Counted from the stretch's first letter, positions 41,711 to 58,926 are shown. The stretch: 64,000 nt of DNA from Cognatilysobacter terrigena (GCF_004361065.1 NZ_SELT01000002.1:177714-241713); one strand, 5' to 3'. Numbers and translations are program-made. Notes: a model not told the origin generated them from the letters alone.

Positions 41711-41787
41711 TGGTGGCTATGGGTGGACTCGAACCACCGACCCCAGCATTATGAGTGCTGTGCTCTAACCGGCTGAGCTACATAGCC
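41711..41787 (-). tRNA. tRNA-Met (anticodon CAT), elongator type
   Basis: Minus-strand sequence GGCTATGTAGCTCAGCCGGTTAGAGCACAGCACTCATAATGCTGGGGTCGGTGGTTCGAGTCCACCCATAGCCACCA folds as a canonical cloverleaf. 7-bp acceptor with G1-C72, encoded CCA. Close to E. coli elongator tRNA-Met. Confidence 0.9.
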
Positions 41788-52252: not shown

Positions 52253-52732
52253 TCAGGGTGTCGGCGCGGCCGGTGGCGGACGTCGCGCCAGCCAGCGATC
52301 AACGCCCGCTGCGAACGTCTGCCGATCGCGCGCATGGAACGGCGCGGGCCCGCCCGTCTGCACACCCGAACCGCGCAGCTCGTCCATGAAGTTGCGGATC
52401 GACAGCCGCTCGGAAATCGTGTCCTTCGTGTACGGCTCGCCGCGCGGGTTGATCGCGGTCGCACCCGCTTCGATCACCTTCGCCGCGAGCGGGATGTCCT
52501 GCGTCACCACCAGGTCGCCGGCACGCACGTGCGCCGCGATCTCGTCATCGGCCACGTCCGGCCCCTGCGGCACCTGGATCGCGCGCAGCCACGGCGACGT
52601 CGGCAACTTGATCCACTGGTTCGCGACGAAGATCGTCTCGACCTTCGCCCGGTTCGCAGCCCGCACGAGGATGTCGCGGATCACGCCCGGGCAGGCGTCC
52701 GCGTCGACCCAGATGCGCGTCGCCTCGCTCAC
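52253..52732 (-). CDS. yaiI: YaiI/YqgE-like UPF0178 (DUF188) protein
   Basis: IWVDADACPGVIRDILVRAA...ETIFVANQ...LVVTQDIPLAA matches the YaiI family. Confidence 0.75.
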   Translation of the reverse strand: MSEATRIWVDADACPGVIRDILVRAANRAKVETIFVANQWIKLPTSPWLRAIQVPQGPDVADDEIAAHVRAGDLVVTQDIPLAAKVIEAGATAINPRGEPYTKDTISERLSIRNFMDELRGSGVQTGGPAPFHARDRQTFAAGVDRWLARRPPPAAPTP

Positions 52733-54114
52733 AGGCGACGCACGCGAAAGCGCTTGGCCTTGATGCGGCCTTCCTGCAGGCGCGACAGCGCGCGCGCGAC
52801 GTCCTCGCGACGCACCGCGACATAACTGCGCGTCGGAAACACATCGATCTTCCCGATCGCGGTGGCGGGCAGGCCCGCCTCACCGGTGAGCGCGCCGACG
52901 ATGTCGCCGGGGCGCAGCTTGTCGGTGCGACCGCCGTCGATGCGCAGCGTGCGCATGGCCGCATGCCGGCCGACGCCATTGCGCAGCGGCGCGAGCGTCG
53001 GCTTGCGCAGCACGGCCTCGATGCCGAGCGCGGTTTCGATCGCCGCCAGGCGCGAACGTTCGCGGCCCGTGCACAGCGTCAGGGCGACGCCGCCACGCCC
53101 CGCGCGCCCGGTGCGGCCGATGCGATGCGTGTACGTATCGGCGTCGCTCGGCACGTCGTAATTGACGACCAGGCCGAGATCCTCGATGTCCAGCCCGCGC
53201 GCGGCGACGTCGCTGGCCACCAGCACGTCGCAACTGCCGTTGGCGAAGCGCACCAGCACTTCCTCGCGGTCGCGCTGTTCCAGATCGCCGTGGAGCGCGA
53301 GCGCATCGAAGCCCAGGTGCGCGAGCGACGACGCGACTTCATCCGCATCGCGCCGCATGTTGCAGAACACCACCGCGCGGCCGTCGTGGTGCGCGAGCAG
53401 CGCACCGGCGAGCGCAGCCGTCTTCTGCGCGGGTTCCACCTCGACGAACCGCTGCTCGATCGCCGGCTGGTCGACGTGCGCCTCGACGCTCACCTCCACC
53501 GGCTCGCGCATCGTCGCCTGCGCCACCGCGCGGATCGCGTCGGGGAACGTCGCCGAGAACAGCAGCGTCTGCCGCGTGCGCGGCGTCGCCGCGACGATCT
53601 CGCGGATCTGTTCCTCGAAGCCCATGTCGAGCATGCGGTCGGCTTCGTCGAGCACCAGCACGCGCACGTCGCGCAGCTTCAGCGCCTTCTTGCGCAGCAG
53701 CTCCTGCACGCGGCCGGGCGTGCCGACGATCACGTGCGGCGCGTGCTGATCCAGCGACGCCAGCTGCGGCGCCAGTGCCACGCCGCCGGTGAGCGTGAGC
53801 AGCTTGAGGTTGGGCACGCCCGTCGCGAGCTTGCGCACCTGCCGCGCCACCTGCTCGGCCAGCTCGCGCGTGGGGCAGAGCACCAGCGCCTGCACCTCGA
53901 TGCGCGACGCGTCGATGCGGTGCAGCAACCCGAGCCCGAACGCGACCGTCTTGCCGCTGCCCGTCGGCGCTTGCGCGATCACATCGCGCCCCTCGATCAG
54001 CGCCGGCAGGCTCTGCGCCTGCACGGGCGTCATCTGCACGTGGCCGAGGGCGTCGAGGCCGGCGAAGAGGGCGGGGTCGAGGGGGAGATCGGTGAATTCG
54101 AGGGGGGAGGTCAT
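52729..54114 (-). CDS. dbpA: ATP-dependent RNA helicase DbpA (DEAD-box with C-terminal 23S rRNA-binding domain)
   Basis: Q-motif/Walker A AQAPTGSGKT, DEAD (VLDEADRM), SAT, HRIGRTGRAG. C-terminal DbpA RRM-like domain (GDIVGALTGEAGLPATAIGKIDVFP). Confidence 0.9.
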   Translation of the reverse strand: MTSPLEFTDLPLDPALFAGLDALGHVQMTPVQAQSLPALIEGRDVIAQAPTGSGKTVAFGLGLLHRIDASRIEVQALVLCPTRELAEQVARQVRKLATGVPNLKLLTLTGGVALAPQLASLDQHAPHVIVGTPGRVQELLRKKALKLRDVRVLVLDEADRMLDMGFEEQIREIVAATPRTRQTLLFSATFPDAIRAVAQATMREPVEVSVEAHVDQPAIEQRFVEVEPAQKTAALAGALLAHHDGRAVVFCNMRRDADEVASSLAHLGFDALALHGDLEQRDREEVLVRFANGSCDVLVASDVAARGLDIEDLGLVVNYDVPSDADTYTHRIGRTGRAGRGGVALTLCTGRERSRLAAIETALGIEAVLRKPTLAPLRNGVGRHAAMRTLRIDGGRTDKLRPGDIVGALTGEAGLPATAIGKIDVFPTRSYVAVRREDVARALSRLQEGRIKAKRFRVRRL

Positions 54115-54585
54115 GCGACATGTTAGCGGGCGGGCCCTAGTATCCACGCTGCGCGCGCTGCTCAGTTGTACTAGCCGAGCAGGGCCTCGAGCAGCTATCG
54201 GACATCGACTGCGTTTGGTTAGAGCCCGGTGCTCGAACCGACGCCACAAAGCGGCTTAGCGGCCGCGGTCATAGGGCGAAGAATTCGGATCTTCCGTTCG
54301 GCCTGCCGGTGCTGCAAGCCGCCTCGATACACTCCGCTTGCCCGAGAACCGCCCGTGAACTCGCATCCAAGTCTGAGATCGCATCGACACGACTATTTGT
54401 GGCGCCTCGCATGGCACCTGGCTACGAAGTGCGAGCTCGAGTCGTGCAGCCCGCCAAGTCGGTATCCGCGCGCATGCTCGACGACGCGTGACACTAGTCG
54501 AATAAGGCGGCTAAACAATTAGCCACGCGGTAAGCTGATCAGCAAATATCCTTCTCTCCGTCAAACGGTATTCATTGGGTGTGTT

Positions 54586-55773
54586 GTGCCTAGATCGAAG
54601 TCAACAGTAGCAACGCGTCGTGCATATGTCATTACGAGCACGAGCGAGGCCAAATGCGTTGCTACCAACTGGCTGGGTGAGTTCCAGTTGAGCCAAATCA
54701 CAAGGTATGGCTTGCCGGAAGTTGACGACCGGTACCACGTGTGGCGGGTCCCTCTTAAGAAGCAACGGGGATCCGAAGTGTTAGGTGAGATTGTCATCGA
54801 TGCATACACGGGCGAGGTCATCGTCGACAAGACCACACGGCCTGAAATTATTGAGGCCCGCCTGCTGAAGAAGGCCGAGGCTGCCGCTTCGAGCGGAAGG
54901 AGTAAAGCGACGTACGAGGTTTCGCAGCTGCGAAACACCATCGGGCTAGGTGACTGCGTTGAGTTGATGGCGGGAATGCCAGCTGAGTCGGTCGACCTGG
55001 TCTTCACTTCGCCGCCCTACTTCAACGCTCGTCCTCAGTACAGCGAATATGACGAGTACCAAAGCTACTTGCTCTTCATGAAGTCAGTCATTCGAGCGGC
55101 AGAGCGCGTCCTTAGAGAAGGTCGCTTTTTTGTCATGAATACCTCGCCCGTTCTGCTTCGGCGGGCGAGCCGTAACGAATCTTCGAAGCGGATTGCAGTT
55201 CCCTTCGATCTGCATGGTCTATTCATAGAGTGCGGCTTCGAATTCGTCGACGACATCATCTGGGTGAAACCCGAGGGCGCGGGATGGGCCACTGGACGCG
55301 GCCGGCGTTTTGCGGCCGATCGTAATCCGCTGCAGTACAAGGCTGTGCCGGTCACCGAGTATGTGCTGGTGTACCGGAAAAAGAGTCAGCGACTGATTGA
55401 CTGGCATATTCGCAATCACCCGGACCGTGATCTGGTCGCCGCATCGAAGATTGGGGACGGATATGAGAAGACGAACGTCTGGCGCATACAACCGAATACG
55501 CGCTCGCCACATCCTGCTCCCTTTCCTATGGAGCTGGCGGAGAAGGTAATTCGCTACTATTCATTCAAGGGAGACGTTGTGCTCGACCCGTTTGCTGGCA
55601 GCGGGACATCGGGTGCGGCCGCAGTGAAGTTGGATCGACGCTTCGTTCTCTTTGATAACAACGAAAAGTACGCAACGTGGATACGCGATAGCGCGCAACA
55701 GTGGCTTGGCAAGCGGTTTAAAGAAGTGCTTCTGCTCAACATTACATCGCCCGCTTCAGAAGGACTGATCTGA
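54586..55773 (+). CDS. Beta-class DNA methyltransferase (N4-cytosine or N6-adenine) of a type II R-M system
   Basis: Motif IV TSPPY (aa ~143) precedes motif I DPFAGSGTSG (aa ~327), i.e. beta-class order. Lies in an AT-richer segment. Confidence 0.85.
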   Translation: MPRSKSTVATRRAYVITSTSEAKCVATNWLGEFQLSQITRYGLPEVDDRYHVWRVPLKKQRGSEVLGEIVIDAYTGEVIVDKTTRPEIIEARLLKKAEAAASSGRSKATYEVSQLRNTIGLGDCVELMAGMPAESVDLVFTSPPYFNARPQYSEYDEYQSYLLFMKSVIRAAERVLREGRFFVMNTSPVLLRRASRNESSKRIAVPFDLHGLFIECGFEFVDDIIWVKPEGAGWATGRGRRFAADRNPLQYKAVPVTEYVLVYRKKSQRLIDWHIRNHPDRDLVAASKIGDGYEKTNVWRIQPNTRSPHPAPFPMELAEKVIRYYSFKGDVVLDPFAGSGTSGAAAVKLDRRFVLFDNNEKYATWIRDSAQQWLGKRFKEVLLLNITSPASEGLI

Positions 55774-56897
55774 TGACCGAGTTGTTGGAGGCATTTCCCT
55801 CGTCCGCCGTTGCTCTCTTATCTGGGTCGGGGCGTGAGTTCATTAAGCGCATCGGTCAGGAGGCGGCGCGCGAGGCGGTGGCTGGCATCCTAAAGGGAGA
55901 GAACGTTCGAACTCAGACAGAGTTCCTTACGCGAGCCCGAATTACTCAACTCAATGCTGCACTCGTGGCTCAATTTGTCAGTCTGCACGACGGCGCGGAT
56001 GATTTTTCCGAACGATTCTTCGATGCGGCAAGGGACGCCATCGCGAAGAAGAATCGTACCCATCCGGCTTACATCACTGCCCAATGGTTTCTCGGGCTAA
56101 CTAACAAGTCGGTTCAGAACGTCTTGCGTGGTAGCTCCGATAACTTGGAGCAGTATGTAGCCCGACTTGATGAGGTGCTGGCGGAGTCGGCCTTAAAGGT
56201 CGAACAGTCGCTAGGCGAATACGCATTTACGATCTGGCGTGAGGGCGCCGAAGTCACGTTCGATTGGACTGATTTTGTTCGCTTGAGTACTGCGATCGGC
56301 GCTCAGACGTTGAGCGTACGGGGGTCAGACAAGTCGATGTACGGGAAGCTCTTCGAACGCCTAGTTTTAGGCAGTGCATTGACGCTACTTGGGTTCACGC
56401 TAGTGCCGCGGGGAGAAAAGAAGAGCGTGACGCGGGCGGGAGCGTTCTGGCTGTCCGATAGTGCAGACACGCGCGAGTGCGATGCGACCGCCGTAGTGGC
56501 TCCAGGTAAAATTGTCCGTTTCGACATCGGTTTCATCGGACCTGGAAATTCGGAGATATCAAAAGACAAGCTGTCGCGGTTCACGGCCGAGATTAATCAA
56601 CAGGGCAAGAAGACGTACTCGAAGACAATCATCGTCGTGGATCGCTTGCCCCGGACGAACAAGACTCTGGACGCTGCTGCCGCGCTGAACGCGGATATCG
56701 TGCAGATGAGTATGAAGTTCTGGCCAATTGAGCTAGCGCAAAAGCTTCAAATGCAGGGATGGTCAAGTACGCTTGCGGGCATATCGGAGGCACGCGTTTC
56801 CGACTGGATTGATCGGAAGATGGACTCGATGAACCTGCTTCCCTTTATCGGAGACCTGTCCGTTAACGCGGCTGAGGAAGCGGACTCGGACGAGTAG
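55773..56897 (+). CDS. Putative cognate type II restriction endonuclease (no recognisable family)
   Basis: 374-aa ORF whose ATG overlaps the methyltransferase stop (TGATG). Same AT-richer composition. No confident catalytic motif seen. Confidence 0.5.
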   Translation: MTELLEAFPSSAVALLSGSGREFIKRIGQEAAREAVAGILKGENVRTQTEFLTRARITQLNAALVAQFVSLHDGADDFSERFFDAARDAIAKKNRTHPAYITAQWFLGLTNKSVQNVLRGSSDNLEQYVARLDEVLAESALKVEQSLGEYAFTIWREGAEVTFDWTDFVRLSTAIGAQTLSVRGSDKSMYGKLFERLVLGSALTLLGFTLVPRGEKKSVTRAGAFWLSDSADTRECDATAVVAPGKIVRFDIGFIGPGNSEISKDKLSRFTAEINQQGKKTYSKTIIVVDRLPRTNKTLDAAAALNADIVQMSMKFWPIELAQKLQMQGWSSTLAGISEARVSDWIDRKMDSMNLLPFIGDLSVNAAEEADSDE

Positions 56898-57090
56898 GTT
56901 GCTATGCATTCCATCACGTTGCGATCTCGATGTTCGTGGACGTGCCCGCGTCGAAGCTCCGTATGAGACGAAATGGAGATGTCATGACAGGGCGCGCAGA
57001 GTTGCGCCAAAAAGAACGTCGATTAGTCATGGATCTTGTCGCTGAGCAGGCCTCGCTGATAAGCCTCCGGCCACCGCGGTAACCTGGATC

Positions 57091-58365
57091 TTGTCCGACA
57101 CGCTTATTGACCCGCGCATCGCCGCCCTAAACAGCCGCAAGCGCATCGCCGCGGCGCTGCTGGTGTTCGCCGCACTCGTCCTCCTCGCCGCCCGCATCAC
57201 CGAGCAGCACCTGCATCACTGGTCGCTCGCGCTTCTCGCCGCCATGGCCGAAGCCGCGCTCGTCGGCGGGCTCGCCGACTGGTTCGCCGTCGTCGCCCTG
57301 TTCCGCCATCCGCTGGGCCAGCGCTGGATTCCGCACACGGCGATCATCCCCACGCGCAAGGACGCCATCGGCGAGAGCCTGGCGGACTTCATCGCGAATC
57401 ATTTCCTCGGGCGCGAGCAGGTGGCGGAGAAGCTGCGCGAGGTCGACATCGGTGCGGCGCTCGCGCGTCGGCTGACGGAGGCGGACACGTCGCGCGCGGT
57501 GGGGCGTGCGGTGGCACGCGGGCTTGCCCGCGTGCTCGACGTGCTGTCGGACGAGCGCCTGCTGCGCTTCGCGCACGACATGTCGCGCGAACGGTTGCGC
57601 AGCCTCGATCTGTCCGGTCTGGCCGCGCTCGGCATCGAGCGGTTCACCGCGGACGGCCGCCATCAGGCGCTGGTTACCGACGTGCTGCGTTTCCTGTCGG
57701 ACAAGCTGCAGTCGCCGTCGGTGCAGGACGAGGTGAAGCGCCGCGTGGCGCGCGAGGTCGGCCGCGTGCTGCGCTGGCTGGGCGCCGACGAGTACGCGTC
57801 GAACCGCCTGATCTCGGCGGGCATCGAGCTGATCGGCGAGATGGCGGAAGATCCGGACCACGAACTGCGCCAGTACATCGAAACGCAGGTGCAGGGATTC
57901 GCCGCGCGCTTGCGCACCGACGAACGTTTGCGCGCCGAGGTCGATGCGTTTCGCGATCGCCTGCTCGACAGCGACGACTTCCTCGCTTACGTGCGCTCGC
58001 TGCTCGCCGACCTCGTGCGTTGGGTCGATGAGGATGCGGCGCGCGATGATTCGGTCATCGCAACGCGCGTCGCGCAGGGCCTGCACGCGGTCGGCGAACG
58101 TCTGCTCGAGGATGCCGACCTGCGCGACTGGGTGTCGTCCAGCGTGCGCGAGACGGTCGAGCCGCTGATCGACGAGCATCGCGATGCGATCCGTCGCTTC
58201 ATCGTCGACCGCATCCGTCGCTGGAACGCCGAGGAGATGACGCGCGAGCTGGAGCTGGCGGTCGGCAGCGACCTGCAGTTCATCCGCTACAACGGCACGG
58301 CCGTAGGTGCGTTGGTGGGCGGACTGATCTTTGCGGCGTCGCGTCTGCTCGGGCTCGCGGGCTGA
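57091..58365 (+). CDS. DUF445 family membrane-associated protein (YjiN-like)
   Basis: 424 aa; N-terminal TM helix then WFAVVALFRHPLGQRWIPHTAIIPTRKD; C-terminal TM helix, both typical of DUF445. Confidence 0.7.
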   Translation: MSDTLIDPRIAALNSRKRIAAALLVFAALVLLAARITEQHLHHWSLALLAAMAEAALVGGLADWFAVVALFRHPLGQRWIPHTAIIPTRKDAIGESLADFIANHFLGREQVAEKLREVDIGAALARRLTEADTSRAVGRAVARGLARVLDVLSDERLLRFAHDMSRERLRSLDLSGLAALGIERFTADGRHQALVTDVLRFLSDKLQSPSVQDEVKRRVAREVGRVLRWLGADEYASNRLISAGIELIGEMAEDPDHELRQYIETQVQGFAARLRTDERLRAEVDAFRDRLLDSDDFLAYVRSLLADLVRWVDEDAARDDSVIATRVAQGLHAVGERLLEDADLRDWVSSSVRETVEPLIDEHRDAIRRFIVDRIRRWNAEEMTRELELAVGSDLQFIRYNGTAVGALVGGLIFAASRLLGLAG

Positions 58366-58377
58366 CGCGAGTGACGG

Positions 58378-58926
58378 TCAGTGAGCCGGGACGTCGGGCG
58401 CGAGTGCTTTGTCGTCGCCGGCGAGCACGTGGTACTGCGCGGGCGTCATGTTGGGCACCTTGCGCAGGAACGCCACCAGCGACCACAGCTGCGGGTCGCT
58501 GTGGGTGCGGCCCCACGCGGGCATCGCGCTCATCTTGATCCCGTGCTTGATGATCCAGAACGCCTCGGCATCGTTGTCGATGCCTTCGTGGCCGAGATCC
58601 GGCGGCTGCGGGTACAGACCGGCGCGCAATGCGCTGTGTGTCTGATCGGGCGCGAGGTGGCAGCCCGTGCATTCCTCGGCGTACTCGCGGGCGCCGCTCG
58701 CCACCATCGACGCGTCGTCGAGGTTGGCGGGTACGCGCACGCTCTGTGCCGCGCGCTCGGTCGCGCTGTCGCGCAGGCGGTCGATCATGTGCAGGGTCAG
58801 CGGTGCGTGCGGAACGTCCGCACCGATCGGATAGAGGCCGGCGCCGACGTAGGCGTAGGCCGCCGCGCCTGCGACGGCGGCGACGGTGACGACGCCGATC
58901 AGGAATCCACGGACGGTGGGCGACAT
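58378..58926 (-). CDS. c-type cytochrome (mono-haem, membrane-anchored)
   Basis: N-terminal TM anchor; haem-binding CTGCH; conserved ...MPAWG... distal Met region. Confidence 0.8.
   Translation of the reverse strand: MSPTVRGFLIGVVTVAAVAGAAAYAYVGAGLYPIGADVPHAPLTLHMIDRLRDSATERAAQSVRVPANLDDASMVASGAREYAEECTGCHLAPDQTHSALRAGLYPQPPDLGHEGIDNDAEAFWIIKHGIKMSAMPAWGRTHSDPQLWSLVAFLRKVPNMTPAQYHVLAGDDKALAPDVPAH

What the first reader, a model, noticed from the sequence alone, without database searches (positions are those of the whole stretch)
54115..57090. AT-richer ~3 kb insertion carrying a beta-class DNA methyltransferase and a putative novel restriction endonuclease
GC drops visibly to ~45-55% by eye, against ~70% elsewhere, between the dbpA start (54114) and the DUF445 gene (57091). 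The methyltransferase has SPPY then FxGxG order (beta class, M.PvuII-like). The 374-aa downstream ORF overlaps it by 1 nt and has no motif I can assign, which makes it a candidate uncharacterised REase family. The methyltransferase's first ~110 aa are also atypical, possibly an extra DNA-binding domain. This is a likely horizontally acquired type II R-M system.
Basis: partly seen in the sequence, partly recalled or inferred. Interest (0 to 1): 0.55.

Follow-up and report, generated by a model that had tools for sequence, protein, structure and literature searches.

The report
CfrBI-family restriction-modification cassette in defence hotspot
The low-GC 3-kb block is a real, horizontally acquired two-gene restriction-modification system, but its nuclease belongs to the already known CfrBI family (prototype cuts C^CWWGG), so it is an ordinary new member, sitting in a chromosomal slot where related bacteria carry other anti-phage genes.

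Summary
Observation confirmed. Positions 54131-57108 have 56% GC against 68% for the rest of the window, and GC3 of 0.63-0.64 against 0.88-0.91. The block holds a beta-class DNA methyltransferase (54586-55773) and a 374-aa ORF (55773-56897) that overlaps it by 1 nt.

- The ORF matches Pfam PF09516 RE_CfrBI at 67.8 bits (cutoff 25) and a PADLOC type II REase model (3e-47).
- NCBI already names the identical protein 'CfrBI family restriction endonuclease' (Cognatilysobacter terrigena).
- It is 31% identical over 95% of its length to CfrBI-type enzymes on enterobacterial plasmids.

The methyltransferase is 57% identical to the plasmid CfrBI-type enzyme, and 76% in the target-recognition region. 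That includes the 'atypical' N-terminal domain, which is a family trait. Likely function: N4-cytosine methylation and cleavage at CCWWGG (inferred).

It differs from the prototype in layout: tandem overlapping M->R genes and no CCWWGG promoter switch.

Three related genomes carry different defence cargo upstream of the same DUF445 gene: PDC-S41, Mza, and type I R-M. In Lysobacter sp. HA35 both flanks, dbpA and DUF445, are seen. Low novelty.

The parts
54131..57108 (.). Variable, lower-GC slot (island) between the conserved dbpA and DUF445 backbone genes
   Evidence: Backbone homology with Lysobacter sp. HA35 ends at 54130 and resumes at 57109. GC is 0.56 against 0.68.
54131..54585 (.). Non-coding leader of the island. 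It presumably holds the promoter of the M-R operon and, divergently, that of dbpA. Origin unknown.
   Evidence: GC 0.597 (measured over 54115-54585). The 97-aa ORF at 54229-54522 has no Pfam hit. No Rfam hit. No homology to the closest cassette relative L048 or to the other hotspot cargos. No consensus sigma-70 site was found here. No CCWWGG site.
54586..55773 (+). Beta-class DNA methyltransferase, CfrBI-type (395 aa, GTG start); probably makes N4-methylcytosine
   Evidence: PF01555 at 1.1e-42. PADLOC MTase_II PDLC03246 at 1.8e-138, covering residues 11-367. 57% identical to the CfrBI-type MTase of E. coli plasmid pO26_3. Homologs of 395-410 aa cover 97-100% of the 395-aa ORF.
54613..54870 (+). 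N-terminal alpha+beta domain of the methyltransferase (residues ~10-95), family-specific, function unknown
   Evidence: In the AF2 model, pLDDT is 82-92 for the 10-residue blocks covering residues 11-90. It has a helix (19-31) and four strands, then a disordered linker at 98-107. Invariant residues include R12, Y14, W29, G42-L43-P44-E45, D47-D48-R49, W53-R54, P56. 39.8% identical to the plasmid MTase over this part. Solved MTases do not cover it (TMq ~0.5). The PepSY hit occurs in 1 of 30 members only.
55009..55020 (+). Catalytic motif IV, SPPY (residues 142-145)
   Evidence: Nearly invariant S142 and invariant P143, P144, Y145 in alignment A2.
55591..55605 (+). AdoMet-binding motif I, FAGSG (residues 336-340), downstream of motif IV, which makes the order beta-class
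   Evidence: Invariant G338, S339, G340 and nearly invariant F336, A337.
55773..56897 (+). CfrBI-family type II restriction endonuclease (374 aa), PD-(D/E)XK fold
56355..56570 (+). Candidate catalytic core of the endonuclease (residues 195-266): invariant E195, D229, E235, D237, D251, E261, K264, D265, K266
   Evidence: These columns are invariant in 38 sequences at 43-78% identity to the query. They lie on the helix 165-205, the strands 238-243 and 246-253, and the helix 260-267 of the model. Assigning particular residues to the active site is inference.
56898..57108 (.). Trailing non-coding part of the island, up to and into the first codons of DUF445
   Evidence: GC 0.56 (measured over 56898-57090). 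No homology to the relatives. No terminator-like site.
52729..54114 (-). Left backbone flank: dbpA (ATP-dependent RNA helicase, 461 aa)
   Evidence: Pfam DEAD, Helicase_C and DbpA. The NCBI name of the identical protein is DbpA. Syntenic with HA35.
57091..58365 (+). Right backbone flank: DUF445 protein (424 aa)
   Evidence: PF04286 at 1e-98. Syntenic in L001, L002 and L049 from about 57090-57109 onward.

Best explanation
This is a compact, horizontally acquired type IIP restriction-modification cassette of the CfrBI family, lodged in a variable chromosomal slot between dbpA and the DUF445 gene of Cognatilysobacter terrigena.

How it most likely works:
- The first gene encodes a beta-class amino-methyltransferase. 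It most likely methylates N4 of the outer cytosine of CCWWGG, as M.CfrBI does.
- The second gene encodes a PD-(D/E)XK endonuclease. It most likely cuts unmethylated C^CWWGG on both strands and leaves 4-nt cohesive ends. Incoming phage or plasmid DNA is then cleaved while the methylated host DNA is spared.
- The two genes form one operon. The nuclease start codon overlaps the methyltransferase stop codon (TGATG). The nuclease is therefore transcribed with, and probably translationally coupled to, the methyltransferase.
- This replaces the prototype's control, where the genes are divergent and share a promoter that is switched by methylation of an embedded CCWWGG site.

Shown here: family membership of both proteins, the nuclease fold, the gene layout, the foreign composition, and the variable slot.

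Inferred: the recognition sequence, the m4C product, the cleavage position, the translational coupling, and the active-site residues.
For: Family membership:
- REase: PF09516 at 67.8 bits against a cutoff of 25; PADLOC REase_II at 3.4e-47.
- NCBI names the identical protein 'CfrBI family restriction endonuclease'.
- All of the best 120 homologs listed carry PF09516.

Link to the prototype-type system:
- Enterobacterial 5.7-kb mobilizable plasmids carry M (376 aa) and R (355 aa) divergently, with a 76-bp spacer that contains CCATGG.
- This matches the published CfrBI layout and its CCWWGG/m4C specificity (bioRxiv 10.64898/2025.12.04.692298, PMC6556831).
- The window MTase is 57% identical to that plasmid MTase, and 76.5% identical across the region between the catalytic and AdoMet motifs, where beta-class MTases carry the target-recognition domain.
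- The REase is 31% identical over 95% of its length.

Fold:
- AF2 pLDDT 85.7.

Intactness: the window protein keeps all 70 invariant columns of the 38-sequence alignment.

Layout: the 1-nt overlap TGATG. The same tandem overlapping M->R order occurs in the closest relatives L048, L045 and L046.

Foreign origin:
- GC 0.56 against 0.68, and GC3 0.63-0.64 against 0.88-0.91.
- DNA homology with the nearest cassette is limited to 54579-56858.
- In HA35 the same dbpA-DUF445 slot holds PDC-S41 instead.
Against: - The recognition sequence was not measured. The REase is only 31% identical to the plasmid CfrBI-type enzyme, and specificity can change within a family.
- CCWWGG is not depleted in the window: 29 sites against 29.15 expected. 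Site statistics therefore give no independent support. This is neutral rather than contrary, since the host is methylated.
- I could not compare with the actual C. freundii CfrBI sequences or with REBASE. The link to CfrBI runs through the Pfam model, NCBI naming, and plasmid systems that show the published layout.
- No promoter consensus was found upstream of the M gene, so expression is not shown.
Confidence: 0.9

Rival explanations
1. The family and mechanism are as above, but the recognition sequence differs. The tandem environmental clade, to which this system belongs, recognises something other than CCWWGG, for example a related palindrome with outer C:G pairs.
For: - The REase is only 31% identical to the enterobacterial CfrBI-type enzyme.
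- The closest solved fold, BsoBI, recognises a different site. From my own knowledge that site is C^YCGRG, with the same cleavage stagger.
- The clade has lost the CCWWGG promoter site, and the island contains no CCWWGG at all.
Against: - The methyltransferase, which must share the target, is 57% identical overall and 76.5% identical in the target-recognition region. That is the best-conserved part of the protein.
- About 1.4 CCWWGG sites would be expected in 3 kb at the window's density, so finding none there is not significant.
Confidence: 0.25
2. One reading: the 374-aa ORF founds a novel, uncharacterised restriction endonuclease family.
For: No solved structure matches by sequence, and NCBIfam has no model for it. 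A reader working from motifs alone would therefore find nothing to assign.
Against: - Pfam PF09516 RE_CfrBI at 67.8 bits against a cutoff of 25.
- PADLOC REase_II at 3.4e-47.
- The NCBI name is 'CfrBI family restriction endonuclease'.
- Full-length homology to plasmid CfrBI-type enzymes.
Confidence: 0.02
3. The cassette is decaying. The methyltransferase is active, effectively as an orphan, but the endonuclease is inactive or not expressed.
For: - No promoter or terminator consensus was detected around the operon.
- There is no avoidance of the presumed target in host DNA.
- NCBI annotates a shorter methyltransferase (361 aa).
Against: - Both ORFs are full length and aligned end to end with homologs.
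- The REase retains every invariant residue of the family.
- The 395-aa MTase start aligns with the homologs' N-termini.
- The overlapping junction is intact.
Confidence: 0.07
4. The downstream ORF is a non-nuclease companion of the methyltransferase, such as an ATPase, Vsr or a regulator. This is the refuting case that the reader named.
For: None found.
Against: - The fold search returns type II restriction endonucleases and other PD-(D/E)XK nucleases as the top matches.
- The Pfam and PADLOC assignments are to REases.
- There are no ATPase or HTH hits.
Confidence: 0.02

Closest known systems
CfrBI R-M system of Citrobacter freundii plasmid pZE8, with CfrBI-type systems on 5.7-kb enterobacterial mobilizable plasmids such as E. 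coli O26 pO26_3 (isoschizomers StyI, Eco130I, BssT1I, ErhI)
   Same: - Both proteins are homologous over their full length. The MTase is 57% identical, including the N-terminal domain. The REase is 31% identical over 95% of its length.
- The REase belongs to the same Pfam family, PF09516.
- It is a two-gene type II system with no C protein.
- The prototype recognises CCWWGG, methylates N4 of the outer C and cuts C^CWWGG. The same is inferred here.
   Different: - The genes here are tandem, M then R, with a 1-nt overlap. They are not divergent around a shared 76-bp promoter region.
- There is no CCWWGG site in the upstream region or anywhere in the island, so the prototype's methylation-sensitive promoter switch cannot operate.
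- The system is chromosomal, in a 68%-GC xanthomonad, not on a small enterobacterial plasmid.
- The REase is 19 aa longer and the MTase also 19 aa longer.
BsoBI (PDB 1dc1) and the Cfr10I / Bse634I / NgoMIV / SgrAI / PspGI / Ecl18kI / EcoRII-C group of PD-(D/E)XK restriction endonucleases
   Same: - From my own knowledge, these enzymes cut 5' of a cytosine at or just outside the site and leave 4-5-nt 5' overhangs. C^CWWGG has the same geometry.
   Different: - Sequence identity in the structural alignments is only 8-13%, and there is no detectable sequence match to any PDB chain.
- The canonical (D/E)XK triplet is not evident. The strand carrying invariant D251 reads F-D-I-G-F. The invariant lysines K264 and K266 lie on the following helix.
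- No CfrBI-family structure has been solved.
Beta-class amino-methyltransferases with solved structures: TTHA0409, the Adineta vaga N4-cytosine MTase, M.PvuII, CcrM, M.RsrI
   Same: - The catalytic fold and circular permutation are the same. Foldseek E-values are 1e-20 to 1e-14, and phmmer gives 3.8e-25 to TTHA0409.
- SPPY precedes FxGxG.
   Different: None of these covers the N-terminal ~95-residue alpha+beta domain (TMq ~0.5). That domain is specific to the CfrBI-type MTase family.
Defence-island integration hotspots (variable anti-phage cargo between conserved core genes)
   Same: - Backbone homology to the window starts at the DUF445 start in three related genomes, and each has a different lower-GC defence cargo upstream of it.
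- The cargos are the CfrBI-type R-M here; PDC-S41 in HA35; MzaB-E in PAGU 2638; and type I R-M plus PDC-S14 and PDC-S45 in C. segetis.
- In HA35 both backbone flanks, dbpA and DUF445, are seen.
   Different: - No integrase, transposase, tRNA or convincing flanking repeat was found in the window's slot.
- The mechanism of cargo exchange is therefore unknown.

Membership tests
CfrBI family restriction endonuclease (Pfam PF09516) | Scores above the Pfam gathering threshold for RE_CfrBI | tested here: met
   67.8 bits against a cutoff of 25, E 1.2e-18, residues 35-270 matching profile positions 7-243 of 257.
CfrBI family restriction endonuclease (Pfam PF09516) | Full-length homology to CfrBI-type enzymes of enterobacterial plasmids | tested here: met
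   tblastn finds 15 plasmids at 31-35% identity; 14 cover at least 80% of the query, and all but one of the matches lie under a gene annotated 'CfrBI family restriction endonuclease'. BLASTP to the pO26_3 enzyme gives E 2e-53 over residues 7-361. The original C. freundii sequence itself was not available.
CfrBI family restriction endonuclease (Pfam PF09516) | Recognises CCWWGG and cuts C^CWWGG | not testable with these tools
   Inferred only, from 76.5% identity of the partner MTase's target-recognition region to the plasmid CfrBI-type MTase. CCWWGG counts in the window are uninformative: 29 against 29.15 expected.
CfrBI family restriction endonuclease (Pfam PF09516) | Adjacent cognate methyltransferase homologous to M.CfrBI-type (beta-class, m4C) | tested here: met
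   The adjacent MTase is 57% identical to the plasmid partner MTase. PADLOC MTase_II PDLC03246 at 1.8e-138. The m4C chemistry itself was not tested.
CfrBI R-M system, prototype architecture and regulation | Divergent M and R genes sharing a promoter region with a single CCWWGG site that acts as a methylation switch | tested here: not met
   The genes are tandem with a 1-nt overlap. There is no CCWWGG between 52169 and 57241. The plasmid systems do show the divergent layout and a CCATGG site in the 76-bp spacer.
PD-(D/E)XK nuclease superfamily | The alpha/beta core fold of PD-(D/E)XK nucleases | tested here: met
   [not shown]
PD-(D/E)XK nuclease superfamily | Canonical catalytic signature: acidic residue, (D/E)-X-K | tested here: inconclusive
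   Invariant E195, D237, D251, E261, K264 and K266 are present, but no strict (D/E)XK triplet lies on the expected strand. The loop 255-262 has pLDDT below 50.
Beta-class N4/N6 DNA amino-methyltransferase (Pfam PF01555) | PF01555 match, with motif IV (S/D/N-PP-Y/F) N-terminal to motif I (FxGxG) | tested here: met
   PF01555 at 147 bits against a cutoff of 26.7. SPPY at residues 142-145 and FAGSG at 336-340. Fold matches to beta-class MTases.
Beta-class N4/N6 DNA amino-methyltransferase (Pfam PF01555) | The product is N4-methylcytosine rather than N6-methyladenine | not testable with these tools
   Suggested by homology to the CfrBI-type MTase (m4C) and by the SPPY form of motif IV. It needs a methylome or biochemistry.
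C-protein-controlled type II R-M systems | A small HTH controller gene next to the R gene | tested here: not met
   The only spare ORF, 54229-54522 (97 aa), has no Pfam hit. The close relatives L048 and L045 consist of M and R only.
Integrative mobile element (genomic island with its own mobility functions) | An integrase or transposase, an attachment site or tRNA target, and flanking direct repeats | tested here: not met
   The only tRNA in the window is at 41711-41787. No recombinase gene lies in 54131-57108. Only short repeats of 11-12 nt, of chance-level length, were found.
Defence-island hotspot | The same core-gene junction carries different defence cargo in related genomes | tested here: met
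   HA35 has PDC-S41 between dbpA and DUF445. PAGU 2638 has MzaB-E upstream of DUF445. C. segetis has type I R-M plus PDC-S14 and PDC-S45 upstream of DUF445. All of these cargos have lower GC than the backbone.

The most novel reading that the evidence does not exclude
The tandem, chromosomal, environmental clade of CfrBI-family systems, to which this cassette belongs, may have replaced the prototype's methylation-sensitive promoter switch with a different control. In that control the conserved N-terminal alpha+beta domain of the methyltransferase would act as an autoregulatory or DNA-binding module, in the manner of the N-terminal regions of M.SsoII and M.EcoRII. Alternatively or additionally, the clade may have a recognition sequence other than CCWWGG. 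In either case the family would hold an undescribed regulatory domain or a new specificity.
Probability: 0.15. Interest if true: 0.35.

Novelty: new member of a known kind. Interest (0 to 1): 0.15.

Why it matters
Little changes for the field. This is one more uncharacterised member of an established restriction enzyme family, already labelled as such in public annotation.

Modest points of value:
1. No structure of any CfrBI-family enzyme has been solved. The confident model here places the family next to BsoBI and the Cfr10I/NgoMIV group. It also nominates invariant residues (E195, D237, D251, K264, K266) for mutagenesis.
2. The environmental clade shows that the family exists in a tandem, overlapping-gene form that lacks the textbook methylation-switch promoter. 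This makes a natural comparison for studies of how R-M systems establish themselves safely in a new host.
3. The dbpA-DUF445 junction in Cognatilysobacter and Lysobacter is a compact defence hotspot. Two of its cargos, PDC-S41 and PDC-S14/PDC-S45, are still only candidate defence systems, so the hotspot adds guilt-by-association support for them.

Tried and rejected
- PepSY-like label for the MTase N-terminal domain. There is a weak Pfam hit (E 0.006), but it occurs in only 1 of 30 family members. Rejected.
- Target-site avoidance as indirect evidence of specificity. CCWWGG occurs 29 times against 29.15 expected. Uninformative.
- Flanking direct repeats as an insertion signature. D15 (CGCGGTAAGCTG at 54526 and CGCGGTAACCTG at 57075) brackets the two genes. 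D19 (TGGATCTTGTC at 57030 and 57085) sits at the DUF445 start. By my rough estimate, 12-mers with one mismatch are expected about 0.2-0.5 times by chance between these flanks, and the closest cassette relative shares no flanking DNA. Not accepted as att sites or target-site duplications.
- Remnants of earlier cargo in the non-coding edges (54131-54585 and 56898-57108). blastn and tblastx against all fetched hotspot and cassette loci gave nothing significant. There is no Rfam hit and no Pfam hit for the 97-aa ORF.
- Promoter and terminator scan. No site lies upstream of the M gene or downstream of R, and counts are at shuffle level.
- Sequence search of the REase against PDB. Only chance-level hits to PsaE, with E of at least 0.4.
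- Simple empty-site test in C. segetis and Lysobacter sp. PAGU 2638. It failed because their slots are also occupied, by cargo of at least 8 kb that runs off the fetched loci. It succeeded only after the HA35 backbone was found through DbpA. No relative with an empty slot was found.
- Methylome literature for CCWWGG. Only the CfrBI paper itself turned up.
- A paper reading term search failed on a term that was too short and was not repeated.
Full report
**1. Observation**

The composition drop is real and sharp.
- 400-nt windows fall from 0.70-0.73 GC to 0.53-0.58 between about 54200 and 57050, then return to 0.70 or more.
It is the lowest 3-kb stretch in the 64 kb. The next lowest outside it is 0.642, and 3-kb windows average 0.674 with sd 0.025.
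- Third-codon-position GC is 0.631 and 0.643 for the two island genes. It is 0.88-0.91 for dbpA, DUF445, the catalase and the peptidase.
- The ORFs are as described: 54586-55773 (+, 395 aa, GTG) and 55773-56897 (+, 374 aa). The junction is TGATG, a 1-nt overlap.
- The flanks are a DbpA-type DEAD-box helicase (minus strand, start at 54114) and a DUF445 protein.

**2. What the two proteins are**

The methyltransferase:
- It matches PF01555 N6_N4_Mtase (1.1e-42).
- Almost end to end, it matches one PADLOC type II methyltransferase model (PDLC03246, 1.8e-138, residues 11-367).

- It matches Pfam PF09516 RE_CfrBI at 67.8 bits, against a gathering cutoff of 25.
- It matches a PADLOC type II REase model at 3.4e-47.
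- The large protein database holds the identical sequence from Cognatilysobacter terrigena, named 'CfrBI family restriction endonuclease' by NCBI.
- That search found 946 homologs with E <= 0.001. All of the best 120 listed carry PF09516.

The central claim of the finding, a candidate uncharacterised REase family, is therefore not supported.

**3. Link to the CfrBI prototype**

According to the literature, CfrBI comes from C. freundii plasmid pZE8. It recognises CCWWGG and cuts C^CWWGG. Its methyltransferase makes N4-methylcytosine at the outer C. The two genes are divergent and share a promoter region with one CCWWGG site, whose methylation switches expression from M to R.

A tblastn of the window's REase against plasmids found 15 small mobilizable enterobacterial plasmids. 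The matches are 31-35% identical. In 14 of the plasmids the match covers at least 80% of the query, and in 14 it lies under a gene annotated 'CfrBI family restriction endonuclease'.

On E. coli O26 plasmid pO26_3 and on a Klebsiella plasmid:
- M (376 aa) and R (355 aa) are divergent with a 76-bp spacer.
- In pO26_3 that spacer contains CCATGG, which is the published layout.

Comparison with the window's proteins:
- The MTase is 57% identical to the plasmid MTase from residue 12 to residue 366.
- The REase is 31% identical over residues 7-361, E 2e-53.

MTase identity by region:

| Region | Identity to plasmid MTase |
|---|---|
| N-terminal domain | 39.8% |
| Motifs IV-VIII | 57.5% |
| Segment between catalytic and AdoMet motifs | 76.5% |
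| Motifs X-I-III | 57.4% |

The 76.5% segment is where beta-class enzymes carry the target-recognition domain. That this is the best-conserved part is the main, indirect, argument that the target is still CCWWGG.

**4. Fold of the endonuclease**

- No PDB chain matches by sequence.
- An AlphaFold2 model built from a 38-sequence alignment is confident: pLDDT 85.7, pTM 0.83.
- All of these are PD-(D/E)XK type II enzymes. From my own knowledge, they cut 5' of a cytosine and leave 4-5-nt 5' overhangs, which is the geometry of C^CWWGG.
- The family alignment has invariant E195, D229, E235, D237, D251, E261, K264, D265 and K266. They lie on the long helix 165-205, the strands 238-243 and 246-253, and the helix 260-267.
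- A strict (D/E)XK triplet is not evident, and the loop 255-262 is poorly modelled. The assignment of catalytic residues therefore remains inference.
- The window protein keeps every invariant column, so it looks intact.

**5. The methyltransferase N-terminus**

- They are conserved in all 29 aligned homologs. Invariant residues include R12, Y14, W29, GLPE 42-45, DDR 47-49, WR 53-54 and P56.
- They are also conserved in the enterobacterial CfrBI-type enzyme. This is a family trait, not a peculiarity of this gene.
- In the AF2 model (pLDDT 79.5) residues ~10-95 form a separate small domain with one helix and four strands. A disordered linker at 98-107 joins it to the catalytic domain.
- Solved beta-class MTases (TTHA0409, the rotifer N4-cytosine MTase, CcrM, M.PvuII, M.RsrI) match only the catalytic part, with TMq ~0.5.
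- A weak PepSY hit occurs in only 1 of 30 members, and I reject it.
- The function of the domain is unknown. DNA binding is possible but untested.

As a by-product, the homologs' N-termini align with the GTG at 54586. The 361-aa NCBI model therefore probably starts 34 codons too late.

**6. Layout and control**

- The window's system and its closest relatives have M then R on one strand, with a 1- or 4-nt overlap. The relatives are L048 (REase 79% identical), L045 and L046.
- There is no C-protein gene. The only spare ORF has no Pfam hit.
- There is no CCWWGG between 52169 and 57241. The prototype's methylation switch cannot operate here.
- The simplest reading is co-transcription with translational coupling, so the nuclease is not made without the methyltransferase. 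This is inferred.
- The promoter scan found nothing upstream of M.

**7. The insertion and its site**

- DNA homology to the nearest cassette (L048) covers only 54579-56858. The transferred unit is essentially the two genes.
- Relatives carry the cassette among unrelated housekeeping genes.
- No tRNA, recombinase, Rfam element or convincing flanking repeat is present.
- DbpA orthologs led to Lysobacter sp. HA35. Its backbone is the same as the window's: catalase, DUF188, dbpA, [slot], DUF445, M28 peptidase.
- Homology to the window ends at 54130 and resumes at 57109.
- In HA35 the slot holds a 657-aa protein that matches the PADLOC candidate defence gene PDC-S41 (3.6e-263). It too has lower GC.
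- Two further relatives have lower-GC blocks of at least 8 kb that end at the DUF445 start.
  - Lysobacter sp. PAGU 2638 carries MzaB, MzaC, MzaD and MzaE.
  - C. segetis carries type I HsdS and HsdR, YgjP, PDC-S14 and PDC-S45.

The R-M cassette therefore occupies a defence hotspot, and the 'insertion' reading is supported. No empty site was seen.

**8. Verdict**

This is a genuine, horizontally acquired type II R-M system and a new, uncharacterised member of the known CfrBI family.
- It most likely modifies CCWWGG to m4C and cuts C^CWWGG: about 0.65-0.7 for the exact specificity, 0.9 for the overall explanation.
- It differs from the prototype in gene order and therefore in regulation.
- Novelty is low, and interest is 0.15.
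- The most novel reading still open is a regulatory role for the N-terminal domain, a changed specificity in the tandem clade, or both. I put it at about 0.15.

Noticed in passing
window 54131-57108; L049 7714-9984; L002 1-8000; L001 1-8000: The slot upstream of DUF445 is a defence hotspot. Four related genomes carry four different lower-GC cargos there: the CfrBI-type R-M (window); PDC-S41 (Lysobacter sp. HA35, where dbpA is also seen on the other side); MzaB-E (Lysobacter sp. PAGU 2638); and type I R-M plus YgjP, PDC-S14 and PDC-S45 (C. segetis). No mobility genes were seen.
   Followed up: yes
window 54586-54687: The public (NCBI) model of the methyltransferase is 361 aa (a 331-aa version also exists). 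Homologs of 395-410 aa align from the GTG at 54586, with conserved residues (R12, Y14, W29, L30) upstream of the annotated start. The annotated start is probably 34 codons too short.
   Followed up: partly
window 54526-54537 and 57075-57086; 57030-57040 and 57085-57095: Two short direct repeats were found. CGCGGTAAGCTG / CGCGGTAACCTG brackets the M-R pair. TGGATCTTGTC occurs twice, 55 nt apart, with the second copy spanning the DUF445 TTG start. A 'CGCGGTAA' motif also lies upstream of DUF445 in L002. All are of chance-level length, so their meaning is unclear.
   Followed up: partly
window 54112-54135 and 57091-57108: The variable slot begins only about 17 nt upstream of the dbpA start codon and reaches into the first ~6 codons of DUF445. 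Both backbone genes must therefore take their promoters and 5' ends from whatever cargo occupies the slot.
   Followed up: no
L050 (C. segetis contig SMRQ01000024) and L001 (contig NZ_SMRQ01000020); L051 (C. tabacisoli): In C. segetis, dbpA and DUF445 lie on different contigs with unrelated neighbours. In C. tabacisoli, dbpA has no DUF445 within 10 kb. The dbpA-DUF445 linkage is therefore broken, or interrupted by an assembly gap, in some relatives.
   Followed up: partly
window 58378-58926 (- strand): A 182-aa ORF with a CxxCH haem-binding motif (ECTGCH), probably a small cytochrome c, lies between DUF445 and the M28 peptidase. It falls in a gap of the alignment to HA35. The window has about 650 bp there where HA35 has about 205 bp, and HA35 has no called gene at that place. 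The alignment to L002 is continuous across it.
   Followed up: no
L046 4377-4652: In a metagenomic relative of the cassette (REase 58% identical), a RelB antitoxin-like gene sits immediately upstream of the methyltransferase. There the MTase is called as 434 aa, with an N-terminal extension.
   Followed up: no
window 52729-54249 (- strand): The mechanical ORF list extends dbpA to a TTG at 54249 (506 aa), reaching into the island. Orthologs and the NCBI model are 460-461 aa and start at 54114, so the extension is an artefact of ORF calling.
   Followed up: yes
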